Sequence record: PQ850600.1
Source: Escherichia phage Dewey
Length of the DNA stretch: 40,352 nt
Reading direction: 5' to 3' (one strand)
Below the pieces are notes generated by a model. It did not search any database. It was given only the letters and a program-made list of their open reading frames with translations, and was not told the DNA's origin. Both the position numbers and the translations under genes were made by a program. Positions 37,703 to 39,020 of this stretch are shown piece by piece (position 1 is the stretch's first letter; every line of letters starts with the position of its first letter).

Positions 37703-38254
37703 ATGAATGATATTTCTATCGAATATCTGAAAGAAGCACTGGAATACACACCAGATTCAGGTGTTATCCGTTGGAAGCAGCGCCCCAAAAATCATTTTAA
37801 GACCGATAATTCTTGGCGGGCGACCAATGCCAATTTTGCCGGAAAGGTGGCAGGCGCACGTGATAATGATGGATATTTCCGCATCGGAATAGATGGTCGG
37901 TTATATAGATCTCATCGTGTCGCCTGGGCGTTACATTATGGCTATTGGCCTGAGAATGAGATTGATCACATTTCAGGCGATAGAGGTGATAACCGCATAG
38001 ACAACCTCCGAACAGTGACTTCGGCAGCCAACAACAAGAATTTGCGCCTTTACTCCACTAATAAAACAGGTGTCCCTGGCGTAGGTTGGTATAAAGCACG
38101 TGGGAAGTGGAGAGCAAAGATAAACGTCTCTGGGAAGGTGAAGCATATTGGTTACTTCGATGATTTCCGTGAAGCGGTGAAAGCAAGAAAGGCTGCCGAG
38201 ATGCAGTTGCAATATCACAAAAATCACGGAACCAGAGACAGGCTCACTTTCTAA
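37703..38254 (+). CDS. HNH endonuclease with AP2-like domain (paralog of 5058..5579)
   Basis: 183 aa; EIDHISGDRGDNRIDNLR HNH motif and GVPGVGWYKARGKWRAKI AP2-like segment; same domain order as the endonuclease between scaffold and coat. Confidence 0.8.
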   Translation: MNDISIEYLKEALEYTPDSGVIRWKQRPKNHFKTDNSWRATNANFAGKVAGARDNDGYFRIGIDGRLYRSHRVAWALHYGYWPENEIDHISGDRGDNRIDNLRTVTSAANNKNLRLYSTNKTGVPGVGWYKARGKWRAKINVSGKVKHIGYFDDFREAVKARKAAEMQLQYHKNHGTRDRLTF

Positions 38255-38268
38255 AAGGTAAAGACGCT

Positions 38269-38766
38269 ATGAAAGCAATCACGCTTTTTAATACACCGAT
38301 CCGTGTTGATGAATCAGGAATGATCTGCCTCACTGATATGTGGAAAGCCAGTGGTAAAAGTGAATCTGAATCTCCGTACCACTACCTGCGAAACAAGCAG
38401 ACCAAAGAGTTCTTAGCCGAGCTGGAGAAAAACCACGAATCTGTGGTTTTTACTGAGCGCGGTGTACACGGTGGAACATATGGCGGGAAGTTTGTTGCTT
38501 ACGATTATGCGGCTTGGTTAAACCCCGGGTTCAAGTACGCGGCCTATAAAGTCCTCGATGACTACTTCACTGGAGAACTTCAGCATCGCAACAGCTTAAG
38601 TGCGCAGCTCAACATGAAATGTCATGAGTTTGACCAGAAGAAAGACATGGCGAGCTTCTGCGGACAAGGGCTGGCGGCATGGCGCTATACGAAGCCAGTG
38701 TTGGTCGCTGAGATTAACTCCCTGGCTAACCAGCTGCAGATTACGATCCCCGGGCTTCCGGGATGA
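38269..38766 (+). CDS. KilA-N domain protein
   Basis: 165 aa; N-terminal ...IRVDESGMICLTDMWKASGK...KEFL fits KilA-N pattern. Confidence 0.6.
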   Translation: MKAITLFNTPIRVDESGMICLTDMWKASGKSESESPYHYLRNKQTKEFLAELEKNHESVVFTERGVHGGTYGGKFVAYDYAAWLNPGFKYAAYKVLDDYFTGELQHRNSLSAQLNMKCHEFDQKKDMASFCGQGLAAWRYTKPVLVAEINSLANQLQITIPGLPG

Positions 38767-39020
38767 GTGATCGTGTCATTGAATGCGCCTCCAGAGCGGG
38801 GCGCGACTTCTCAGAGTTCATGAAAGGCGAGAAGGGCATGATGGAAGCATTGGCCTCGGTGGATGAGTTTGGCGAGCAGCTGCGCCTCAACGGCTGTGTC
38901 AATCATCACTTTGTTAGCTACATGATGCGGAACTCGATCATGCAGGCATTCATGGACATGGCAAAAGCCGAGAGGAAAGAAGAGCGCCGGCGTAAGCGAG
39001 CGGAAGCAAAAGCGAAGTAG
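38763..39020 (+). CDS. hypothetical protein
   Basis: 85 aa ORF, Lys/Arg/Glu-rich C-terminus; overlaps the KilA-N stop. Confidence 0.4.
   Translation: MSDRVIECASRAGRDFSEFMKGEKGMMEALASVDEFGEQLRLNGCVNHHFVSYMMRNSIMQAFMDMAKAERKEERRRKRAEAKAK

What the first reader, a model, noticed from the sequence alone, without database searches (positions are those of the whole stretch)
37703..39020. Second HNH-AP2 endonuclease followed by a KilA-N protein after the lysis cassette
A paralog of the scaffold-coat endonuclease sits just after the Rz terminator, followed by a KilA-N domain gene and a small basic protein. Duplicated homing-type nucleases in one genome suggest ongoing mobile-intron-like activity, or a functional role such as assisting terminase cutting.
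Basis: partly seen in the sequence, partly recalled or inferred. Interest (0 to 1): 0.5.

Follow-up and report, generated by a model that had tools for sequence, protein, structure and literature searches.

The report
Selfish nuclease gene inserted after lysis genes
A P22-like coliphage carries two independently acquired, free-standing HNH-AP2 "homing-type" nuclease genes. The one after the lysis genes sits behind a conserved, folded RNA leader that marks a gene-swapping hot spot in many related phages, so the nucleases are ordinary and the leader is the new part.

Summary
Window 37703-38254 (+) encodes a 183-aa HNH_3 nuclease with a C-terminal AP2 fold. It lies just after the Rz terminator and is followed by a KilA-N/ORF11CD3 gene and an 85-aa gene of unknown function.

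It is homologous to the nuclease between the scaffold and coat genes (5058-5579, minus strand): 39% identity, E 5e-29. It is not an in-genome duplicate, because more than 100 database proteins are closer to it.

Both genes look like free-standing homing endonuclease insertions:
- **HNH1:** a clean 589-bp insertion that is absent from sister phages. The first 39 nt of the adjacent coat gene are recoded.
- **HNH2:** compared with a 97-99% identical prophage without it, 657 bp (a leader plus the nuclease body) replace 106 bp of leader. Almost the same cassette occurs in unrelated Cronobacter prophage backbones.

A terminase-helper role and an intron origin are not supported.

The most interesting by-product is the 110-nt leader (37585-37694). 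It is absent from Rfam, it is predicted to sequester the ribosome-binding site, and covariation supports its fold. In many phages it precedes a hypervariable gene slot: Rha, KilA-N or antirepressor genes in most cases and nuclease genes in about 12%.

Cleavage and homing are inferred, not shown.

The parts
37082..37519 (+). Rz spanin gene, the last gene of the lysis cassette and the left-hand context
   Evidence: Pfam Phage_lysis E 2.8e-37. It is 97% identical to Rz of the HNH-less prophage AVS0969.
37550..37577 (+). Intrinsic-terminator-like hairpin plus T-run. It is the left boundary of the HNH2 cassette.
   Evidence: Terminator scan. Homology to the empty-site prophage ends at 37577. Identity to the Cronobacter-type cassette (L008) starts at 37552.
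37585..37694 (+). Conserved structured leader of type A. Its outer helix pairs ACCUUU with the Shine-Dalgarno AAAGGU of the HNH2 gene.
   Evidence: Single-sequence fold z = -2.3. RNAalifold finds compensatory pairs. The covariance model scores 123 bits, and this is the only full copy in the window. On 60 distinct sequences 99% of cells are paired and 12 of 21 pairs carry double changes. There is no Rfam match.
37578..38234 (+). Segment specific to HNH2-carrying genomes: leader A plus the HNH2 body. It replaces 106 bp of leader B in the empty site.
   Evidence: blastn against AVS0969: the flanks 36132-37577 and 38235-39212 are 97.3% and 98.7% identical, with nothing matching in between. Mosaic joints with S.Inf 5-2 (homology ends at 37695) and with HK620 (homology starts at 38235).
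37703..38254 (+). HNH2, a 183-aa HNH_3 + AP2 endonuclease. The HNH motif is aa 69-111 (nt 37907-38035). The AP2 fold is about aa 122-168 (nt 38066-38206). Its stop codon is the TAA inside the leader remnant.
   Evidence: D88, H89 and N110 are invariant and N101 is nearly invariant among 63 homologues. They align with the DH...N...N motif of I-HmuI.
38235..38268 (+). Remnant 3' half of an HK620-type (type B) leader: GAGACAGGCTCACTTTCTAAAAGGTAAAGACGCT. It supplies the last 6 codons and the stop codon of HNH2, and the Shine-Dalgarno sequence of the KilA-N gene. With the 3' half of leader A it forms an imperfect direct repeat flanking HNH2.
   Evidence: Alignments with HK620, AVS0969 and ET650. 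The same half-leader follows HNH2 in L116, L021, L033 and ET650.
38269..38766 (+). KilA-N + ORF11CD3 protein, a homologue of HK620 hkbK. It is the ordinary resident of this slot.
   Evidence: Pfam, PHROG 129/10441, HK620 annotation.
38763..39020 (+). 85-aa hkbL-like protein of unknown function with a basic C-terminal tail
   Evidence: PHROG 875 E 3e-54, pI 9.1, HK620 hkbL.
5058..5646 (-). HNH1 insertion. The 173-aa HNH_3 gene is at 5058-5579 on the minus strand, followed by 67 bp of upstream sequence, lying exactly between the scaffold stop codon and the coat ATG.
   Evidence: Present in phage Louie. Absent from IME10, where the scaffold and coat genes abut. Four further relatives (CurroJimenez, APC_JM3.2, HZ41 and a second IME10 record, JF974339/NC_019501) match in two pieces covering 92-94% of the query, which fits the same gap. 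GC is 39% against 48% for the window.
5647..5685 (+). Recoded 5' end of the coat gene next to HNH1. It is the candidate target or immunity tract.
   Evidence: 14 mismatches to IME10 in the first 39 nt, giving 3 amino-acid changes, then 0 mismatches in the next 137 nt. The last 500 nt of the scaffold gene carry 5 mismatches.

Best explanation
HNH2 (37703-38254) is a free-standing homing-type endonuclease gene of the HNH-AP2 family. It was acquired independently of the scaffold-coat HNH1.

**Where it sits.** HNH2 lies in the late operon, inside the conserved leader of the accessory slot that follows the lysis genes. Compared with an HNH-less sister prophage, a 657-bp block (a complete type-A leader plus the nuclease body) has replaced the first 106 bp of the resident type-B leader. 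The last 34 bp of the resident leader remain. They now supply the nuclease's stop codon and the ribosome-binding site of the downstream KilA-N gene.

**Inferred mechanism.**
1. The gene is transcribed late, by Q-antiterminated read-through of the Rz terminator.
2. It is translated at a level limited by the leader helix that sequesters its ribosome-binding site.
3. In a mixed infection, or with a resident prophage, the protein binds DNA through its AP2 and N-terminal elements.
4. It nicks or cuts the HNH-less allele in or near the leader.
5. Recombinational repair then copies the cassette, using the terminator and leader on the left and the leader 3' half plus KilA-N on the right as homology arms.
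6. The HNH-carrying allele is protected because its own leader is the divergent type A.

HNH1 is a second element of the same kind. It targets the scaffold-coat junction.

**Status of the steps.** Shown: domain identity, intact catalytic motif, insertion boundaries, presence/absence polymorphism, and occurrence of the cassette in unrelated backbones. Inferred: cleavage, the target site, homing, and the timing of expression.
For: **Family**
- HNH_3 domain and PHROG 99 'HNH endonuclease'.
- The only PADLOC hits are 'homing endonuclease' models.
- The closest solved structure by sequence and by fold is the homing endonuclease I-HmuI. An AP2 fold lies at the C-terminus.
- D88, H89 and N110 are invariant and N101 is nearly invariant in 63 homologues.
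- HNH with a C-terminal AP2 domain is a described homing endonuclease family (PMC10448857).

**Insertion**
- Prophage AVS0969 is 97.3% and 98.7% identical on the two flanks and lacks the gene.
- Only 2 of 5426 complete E. coli genomes carry it, while 620 carry the 34-nt junction sequence.

**Mobility**
- A 97.6-97.9% identical stretch covering terminator, leader and HNH2 lies after unrelated lysis genes and before different terminases in Cronobacter-type prophages.
- Relatives at 79% and 54% protein identity also sit directly behind the leader.
- HNH2 ends in a leader 3'-half in at least 5 contexts.

**The slot attracts nucleases**
- 15 of 120 unselected leader instances are followed by HNH_3 or T5orf172 genes from several lineages.

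**Parallel case in the same genome**
- HNH1 is a clean insertion with 14 substitutions in 39 nt of the adjacent coat gene.
Against: - No cleavage or inheritance data exist.
- The same leader joint is also the boundary at which non-nuclease genes (Rha, KilA-N, antirepressor-like) are exchanged. General homologous recombination at the conserved leader could therefore move the cassette without any nuclease activity.
- HNH2 is rare: 2 of about 620 suitable sites in complete E. coli genomes. That is low for an efficient drive.
- Type-A leaders also occur without HNH2, so 'type A = immune allele' is not exclusive.
- The AP2 hit by sequence is below Pfam's threshold.
- I-HmuI-like enzymes nick rather than cut both strands, so double-strand-break repair is not guaranteed.
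Confidence: 0.6

Rival explanations
1. Passive cassette. HNH2 moves only because it is embedded between conserved recombination 'linker' sequences (terminator and leader on the left, leader 3' half on the right) that shuffle every gene in this slot. On this view its nuclease activity is irrelevant to its spread, or already decaying.
For: The leader is followed by at least 15 unrelated genes, and identical leaders precede different genes. Mosaic joints fall exactly at the Shine-Dalgarno end of the leader even for non-nuclease genes. L008 carries two tandem terminator+leader units and a hybrid leader. HNH2 is rare.
Against: The catalytic residues are invariant or nearly invariant across 63 homologues, and the model is confident. 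HNH2 is added to the resident gene, with a duplicated half-leader, rather than swapped for it. Several independent nuclease lineages occupy the same slot, in 12.5% of instances.
Confidence: 0.2
2. Competition or exclusion weapon. The nuclease is kept because it benefits the phage by cutting co-infecting or resident related phages (marker exclusion). Alternatively it acts on host or defence DNA, in a slot that generally carries accessory and counter-defence genes.
For: The slot carries accessory genes, including a gene annotated as anti-CRISPR in the sister phage Louie. AP2 domains are used by DNA-binding anti-CRISPRs (preprint 10.64898/2026.02.23.707548). Free-standing homing endonucleases are known to cause marker exclusion (references in PMC10448857).
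Against: There is no hit to a defence or anti-defence family other than 'homing endonuclease'. Nothing distinguishes this idea from plain homing, with which it overlaps.
Confidence: 0.12
3. Packaging helper. Like HK97 gp74, the HNH protein stimulates terminase cutting.
For: The gene lies in the region between the lysis genes and the small terminase gene, as do its relatives.
Against: It is of the HNH_3+AP2 type, not the small PF01844 type. It lies 2.1 kb and five ORFs away from terS. The small terminase is the P22 gp3 type (PF16677), which by established knowledge belongs to headful (pac) packaging. Close sister phages and HK620 package without this gene. L009 has its own PF01844 HNH beside a Terminase_4/HK97-type module in addition to the HNH2 homologue.
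Confidence: 0.03
4. In-genome duplication. HNH2 arose by duplication of HNH1 within this phage (paralogy in the strict sense).
For: Each is the other's best match inside the window, and both fall in PHROG 99.
Against: They share only 39% identity. HNH2 has relatives at 97, 93, 88, 79 ... 40% identity elsewhere. Apart from the identical copy in Louie, HNH1's best phage hits are 41-49% identical. Their GC contents differ, 39% against 46%. They lie on opposite strands.
Confidence: 0.02

Closest known systems
I-HmuI (Bacillus phage SPO1 HNH homing endonuclease, PDB 1U3E)
   Same: It is the best solved-structure match by sequence (E 4.5e-4, residues 29-114) and by fold (Foldseek probability 1.0). 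Shared features are the N-terminal beta elements, the His-Me finger and an aligned DH...N...N motif.
   Different: I-HmuI is intron-encoded and has a helical C-terminal DNA-binding region. HNH2 is free-standing and has an AP2 fold instead. Identity is only about 19%.
HNH-AP2 homing endonuclease family (Magnani et al. 2004, as cited in PMC10448857; 'IPA-HNH' genes of ICP1; Xp10/OP1-type phage HNH genes)
   Same: The same two-domain layout, with an N-terminal HNH and a C-terminal AP2. These genes are free-standing, lie near capsid or terminase genes, and sit at boundaries of genetic exchange.
   Different: The ICP1 proteins are too divergent for the Pfam HNH_3 model, whereas HNH2 matches it strongly. 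The described cases named in the passages read are ICP1 and its homologues. Here the host is a temperate P22-like/lambdoid phage, and the insertion lies inside a conserved structured leader.
T4 free-standing homing endonucleases (Seg and Mob proteins; intronless homing and marker exclusion)
   Same: The inferred behaviour matches: an intergenic insertion between conserved genes, presence/absence between close relatives, and divergent or recoded sequence beside the insertion.
   Different: The Seg proteins are GIY-YIG enzymes. Homing has been shown experimentally for T4 but is only inferred here.
HK97 gp74-type packaging HNH proteins
   Same: An HNH catalytic motif and a position in the general neighbourhood of the terminase genes.
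   Different: gp74-type proteins are small PF01844 proteins adjacent to HK97-type terminase. HNH2 is HNH_3+AP2 in a phage with a P22 gp3-type small terminase.
Leaders that sequester the ribosome-binding site, such as the RNase III-processed leader of the lambda N gene (comparison for the leader only; from general knowledge)
   Same: A long imperfect helix occludes the ribosome-binding site of the first downstream gene in a phage operon.
   Different: There is no sequence or Rfam relationship. The trigger that would open the helix is unknown.

Membership tests
HNH (His-Me finger) homing endonucleases, HNH_3 / I-HmuI-like | HNH_3 domain with an intact catalytic DH...N...N motif | tested here: met
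   Pfam HNH_3 E 1.5e-18. D88, H89 and N110 are invariant and N101 is nearly invariant in 63 homologues. They align with I-HmuI.
HNH-AP2 homing endonuclease family | C-terminal AP2 DNA-binding domain (three-stranded sheet plus helix) | tested here: met
   Pfam AP2 scores only E 1.4e-3, below the gathering score. The AlphaFold model (pLDDT 90) has strands 127-130, 135-142 and 145-152 and helix 155-168, and it matches AP2 structures 7et5, 7wq5 and 1gcc at probability 0.98-1.0.
Free-standing homing endonuclease genes | The gene is present or absent between otherwise near-identical genomes at a precise site | tested here: met
   HNH2: AVS0969 against the window. HNH1: IME10 against the window and Louie.
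Free-standing homing endonuclease genes | The same element occurs in unrelated genomic backbones (horizontal spread) | tested here: met
   A cassette 97.6-97.9% identical in DNA lies in L007, L008 and L009, which have different lysis and terminase modules. ET650 carries it with a different head module.
Free-standing homing endonuclease genes | Site-specific cleavage of the endonuclease-less allele, with immunity of the carrier allele | not testable with these tools
   Only indirect evidence is available: the recoded coat 5' end beside HNH1 and the replacement of leader B by the divergent leader A beside HNH2.
Free-standing homing endonuclease genes | Over-representation of the element, and co-conversion of flanking markers, in crosses | not testable with these tools
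   Needs phage crosses.
Intron- or intein-encoded homing endonucleases ('mobile-intron-like') | The gene is embedded in a self-splicing intron or an intein that interrupts a host gene | tested here: not met
   No intron family reaches the Rfam gathering score anywhere in the window. Both genes lie between complete ORFs.
gp74-type packaging HNH proteins (HK97) | A small PF01844 HNH protein encoded beside an HK97-type terminase of a cos phage | tested here: not met
   HNH2 matches HNH_3, not PF01844. The small terminase is PF16677 GP3_package. L009 has a separate PF01844 HNH next to Terminase_4.
KilA-N domain proteins (hkbK group) | An N-terminal KilA-N domain; in this group also a C-terminal ORF11CD3 domain | tested here: met
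   KilA-N E 6.6e-16 and ORF11CD3 E 2.4e-13. About 94% DNA identity to the HK620 hkbK region.
Any curated RNA family (tested for the leader 37585-37694) | A match to an Rfam 15 covariance model | tested here: not met
   No hit at gathering score in the window. Only chance-level hits (E at least 0.33) in 37480-38300.

The most novel reading that the evidence does not exclude
The 110-nt leader (37585-37694) is an undescribed cis-regulatory RNA of lambdoid and P22-like phages. It gates translation of whichever gene occupies a hypervariable accessory slot. Because it is so conserved, it also serves as the landing pad, and perhaps the cleavage target, for several independent lineages of homing-type nucleases: HNH-AP2, other HNH_3 types and T5orf172. 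HNH2 would then be a homing element that targets a regulatory RNA gene segment rather than a protein-coding gene, and that rebuilds the ribosome-binding site of the resident gene from a retained half-leader.
Probability: 0.3. Interest if true: 0.6.

Novelty: new member of a known kind. Interest (0 to 1): 0.38.

Why it matters
The nucleases themselves are ordinary. HNH-AP2 homing-type genes are widespread in phages: 1361 phage records carry homologues.

The locus is still useful for three reasons.
- **Two worked examples in a tractable coliphage.** It offers a filled site, an empty site and an apparent immunity tract in a temperate P22-like phage, and the papers read here describe homing endonuclease genes in T4 and ICP1-type phages.
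- **Insertion into a leader.** One homing-type cassette has inserted into a conserved leader while keeping the downstream gene translatable.
- **A candidate RNA element.** The leader is structured, absent from Rfam, and marks a gene-exchange hot spot across lambdoid phages, including Stx phages.

If the leader proves to be a translational switch, it would explain how expression of Rha, KilA-N and antirepressor-type proteins, and of nucleases, is held in check in the late operon.

Tried and rejected
- **Rfam.** Searches at gathering score over the whole window and at a permissive E-value over 37480-38300 gave nothing meaningful for the leader or for introns.
- **NCBIfam and PADLOC.** NCBIfam gave no hits for any of the six proteins. 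PADLOC gave only 'homing endonuclease' hits for the HNH proteins and one weak candidate-system hit (PDC-S22) for KilA-N.
- **DNA search of the HNH2 gene in the phage collection.** Only the leader matched, so the gene itself is not in that collection at DNA level.
- **A leader peptide.** A 24-25 codon ORF in type-A leaders ends at the same TAA. I rejected it as a general feature: its middle part is frame-shifted between variants, and type-B leaders lack the start codon (read from the sequences).
- **AP2 'GCC box'.** AGCCGCC lies 8 nt upstream of the junction in the empty-site leader. The heptamer is common, with 6 matches in the window against 4.6 expected. I keep it only as a lead.
- **Literature on rha and IHF control of the slot's resident genes.** Nothing usable turned up in the searchable library.
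- **Identifying the window.** It is not Dewey, which has the wrong length, and Huey is not in the collection.
- **Promoter scan.** No sigma-70 promoter was found on the + strand for HNH2. The scan reported none for HNH1 either. By eye I see only an extended -10-like TGCTATACT upstream of HNH1.
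Full report
**Setting.** The window looks like a complete, circularly permuted genome of a P22-like (Lederbergvirus-type) coliphage. It starts at the small terminase ATG. The order is terS, terL, portal, scaffold, coat, tail and injection genes, tailspike, integrase, early region, Q, lysis genes S-R-Rz, and then a short accessory region before terS. The structural region is 97% identical to phage Louie. The lysis-to-DUF2560 region resembles HK620 and many lambdoid phages.

**Check of the observation.**
- Rz (37082-37519) is followed by a hairpin plus T-run at 37550-37570.
- A 183-aa ORF lies at 37703-38254. It has a strong HNH_3 domain and a weak AP2 hit.
- A KilA-N + ORF11CD3 gene lies at 38269-38766, homologous to HK620 hkbK.
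- An 85-aa hkbL-like gene lies at 38763-39020. Only its tail is strongly basic (pI 9.1).

The AP2 assignment holds at the level of structure. An AlphaFold model built on 63 homologues (pLDDT 90.2) has a three-stranded sheet plus helix at residues 127-168. It matches I-HmuI first, then plant and Plasmodium AP2 domains.

The 'scaffold-coat endonuclease' is real but lies on the minus strand (5058-5579). The window holds further HNH-type genes: 33685-34194 (NUMOD4+HNH_3) and 29260-30060 (PF01844).

**Homologues, but not duplicates.**
- HNH2 has database relatives at 97% (Cronobacter and others), 93% (E. coli), 88%, 79% (Phytobacter), 77% and 58-52% identity. All 120 proteins listed in the search are at least 40% identical to it.
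- In the phage collection, HNH1 is identical only to the Louie gene and otherwise reaches at most 49%. HNH2 reaches at most 47%.
- Their GC contents differ: 39% for HNH1, 46% for HNH2 and 48% for the window.

These are two independent acquisitions from one very large family. HNH2 alone has homologues in 1361 phage records.

**HNH1 is a textbook free-standing insertion.** In IME10 the scaffold stop codon and the coat start codon abut. In the window and in Louie, 589 bp carrying the reverse-oriented HNH gene lie exactly between them. Four other close relatives match in two pieces with a gap of the right size. Next to the insertion, the first 39 nt of the coat gene differ from IME10 at 14 positions but change only 3 amino acids. 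The next 137 nt are identical, and the last 500 nt of the scaffold gene differ at 5 positions. A short, mostly synonymous recoded tract beside the insertion is what is expected when the endonuclease-less sequence is the target and the carrier allele is immune.

**HNH2: boundaries and the empty site.** HK620 lacks the gene, and its homology resumes at 38235, inside the 3' end of the HNH2 ORF. Salmonella phage S.Inf 5-2 shares 36053-37695 and diverges exactly at the ribosome-binding site.

The best comparator is E. coli prophage AVS0969. Its left flank (36132-37577) is 97.3% identical and its right flank (38235-39212) is 98.7% identical. In between, 657 bp in the window (37578-38234) stand in place of 106 bp. 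The 106 bp are the 5' part of an HK620-type leader, which I call type B. The 657 bp are a complete, divergent type-A leader plus the nuclease body.

The conserved core of the protein ends at ...NHG176. The last codons and the TAA stop come from the retained 34-nt 3' half of leader B, GAGACAGGCTCACTTTCTAAAAGGTAAAGACGCT. That remnant also carries the ribosome-binding site of KilA-N. HNH2 is therefore flanked by an imperfect direct repeat: GACAAGGTTCATCACTAAAAGGTAA and GACAGGCTCACTTTCTAAAAGGTAA.

Only 2 of 5426 complete E. coli genomes have the gene. In both it lies at the same Rz|HNH|KilA-N position, and in ET650 the prophage has a different head module. In contrast, 620 genomes carry the 34-nt junction sequence.

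**HNH2 moves between backbones.**
- The 97%-identical protein is encoded in prophages with three different arrangements. The lysis genes differ (lambda-type lysozyme+Rz, or Glyco_hydro_19+DUF2570). The packaging modules differ (Terminase_2 with Phage_portal_3, or HK97-type Terminase_4, TerL and Clp protease). None has a KilA-N gene. In each case the gene lies after the lysis genes where these are visible, and before terS.
- DNA identity to the window (97.6-97.9%) starts at the terminator (37552) and ends at 38261, regardless of what lies outside.
- Relatives at 79% (Phytobacter) and 54% (Klebsiella variicola) protein identity also sit directly behind the same leader, between Rz and terS.
- In IMG/VR contigs HNH2 again ends in a leader 3' half and is followed by different genes.

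**The leader.** The 110 nt upstream of HNH2 are much better conserved than the genes they precede.

With the loci already fetched, that made 132 instances and 58 distinct sequences. They are followed, within a few bases of CTAAAAGG, by at least 15 unrelated ORFs:
- Rha (Phage_pRha, with or without ORF11CD3);
- KilA-N (with or without P63C or ORF11CD3);
- P22_AR_N antirepressor-like proteins;
- T5orf172/MUG113 nucleases;
- several HNH_3 lineages.

In the 120 unselected instances, 15 (12.5%) are followed by a nuclease gene: 7 HNH_3 and 8 T5orf172. HNH2 was always behind a type-A leader.

The predicted fold pairs ACCUUU with the ribosome-binding site AAAGGU and GAUGAACCUUG with CAAGGUUCAUC, and it has inner helices. 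Types A and B keep all these helices through compensatory changes. A covariance model finds one full copy in the window. It also finds extra, more divergent copies in other loci that my search pattern had not forced. Over 60 distinct sequences, 99% of pair cells are standard pairs and 12 of 21 pairs show changes on both sides. No shuffle out of 500 reaches the observed values, and slid controls give 35-58% pairing.

Three caveats apply. The alignment was fitted to the model. The sequences fall into a few types. The outer anchors were fixed by my search pattern for most sequences.

Rfam 15 has no matching family.

The leader is not tied to the post-Rz position. In two contigs, a leader plus an HNH gene lies between Q and the holin gene. 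One prophage has two tandem terminator+leader units.

**How it most likely works.**

*Shown:*
- family membership and an intact catalytic motif;
- the insertion boundaries;
- presence/absence polymorphism;
- the cassette in unrelated backbones;
- enrichment of nuclease genes behind the leader.

*Inferred:*
- No promoter is predicted on the + strand, so the gene is probably expressed late, by Q-antiterminated read-through of the Rz terminator.
- The leader probably limits its translation.
- The protein probably nicks or cuts HNH-less alleles in or near the leader.
- Repair then copies the cassette. The terminator and leader 5' part serve as one homology arm, and the leader 3' half plus the downstream gene serve as the other.
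- Keeping the half-leader leaves the resident gene translatable, probably coupled to HNH2 translation. The HNH2 stop codon lies 14 nt before the KilA-N ATG, with the ribosome-binding site between them.

**Literature.** The published picture agrees with this reading. HNH with a C-terminal AP2 domain is a recognised homing endonuclease family. Homing endonuclease genes cluster near terminase and capsid genes and sit at boundaries of genetic exchange between phages (PMC10448857).

**Rivals.** Four alternatives remain.
1. *Passive shuffling.* The cassette may spread only by ordinary recombination at the conserved leader. This stays open because non-nuclease genes use the same joints.
2. *Exclusion or benefit.* A role in competition with related phages overlaps with homing and cannot be separated from it here.
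3. *Terminase helper.* This is very unlikely. The HNH subtype is wrong, the packaging system is of the P22 gp3 type, sister phages lack the gene, and L009 has a separate PF01844 HNH beside its HK97-type terminase.
4. *In-genome duplication.* This is rejected by the identity ranking.

**Verdict.** The finding is real, and its core is ordinary: a new member of a known kind of selfish nuclease gene. The conserved structured leader and its cassette slot are the part worth following up.

Noticed in passing
window 37585-37694 (plus the remnant at 38235-38268): A conserved leader of about 110 nt, supported by covariation and predicted to sequester the ribosome-binding site. It is not in Rfam. Across lambdoid, P22-like and Stx phages it precedes a hypervariable gene slot (Rha, KilA-N, antirepressor-like, T5orf172 and HNH genes).
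   Followed up: partly
window 5647-5685: The first 13 codons of the coat gene are recoded relative to HNH1-less sister phages: 14 substitutions and 3 amino-acid changes, followed by 137 identical nucleotides. This looks like an immunity or co-conversion tract.
   Followed up: yes
window 33685-34194, 34184-34462 and 29260-30060: Further nuclease-type genes. The first is a NUMOD4+HNH_3 protein of 169 aa, 99% identical to a gene in contig L107. The second is a 92-aa HkbD-like ORF. The third is a 266-aa protein with an N-terminal PF01844 HNH domain, lying between cII and the replication genes. The genome therefore carries at least four HNH-type genes.
   Followed up: partly
window 39859-40347: A 162-aa ORF matching PHROG 1040 ('peptidase HslV family') lies immediately upstream of the small terminase gene. 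HK620 has different small ORFs at this position.
   Followed up: no
L008 1739-2376: Two tandem terminator+leader units. The first has a hybrid A/B 3' half and drives a 75-aa ORF. The second drives the HNH2 homologue. The leaders therefore recombine with each other.
   Followed up: partly
L107 (reverse strand) 7417-8044 and L034 (reverse strand) 5505-6715: A leader plus an HNH_3(-AP2) gene lies between the Q antiterminator gene and the holin gene rather than after Rz. In L034 a second nuclease gene (NUMOD4-type) follows directly.
   Followed up: partly
L005 (phage Louie) 36932-37402: The sister phage Louie carries a gene annotated 'anti-CRISPR protein' in the post-Rz slot. The slot may in general hold counter-defence or accessory genes.
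   Followed up: no
L134 and L106 (and 6 more IMG/VR contigs): A 162-aa T5orf172/MUG113 (GIY-YIG-related) nuclease gene sits directly behind type-B leaders in 8 of 120 unselected leader instances.
   Followed up: partly
window 37254-37466: An ORF embedded in Rz in another frame carries a lipobox-like LLGVSAC. It is probably the Rz1 outer-membrane spanin.
   Followed up: no
L014 4062-4068 (minus strand): A perfect plant-type AP2 'GCC box' (AGCCGCC) lies 8 nt upstream of the HNH2 insertion junction in the empty-site leader. It is absent from the type-A leader. The heptamer is common, so this is only a lead.
   Followed up: partly
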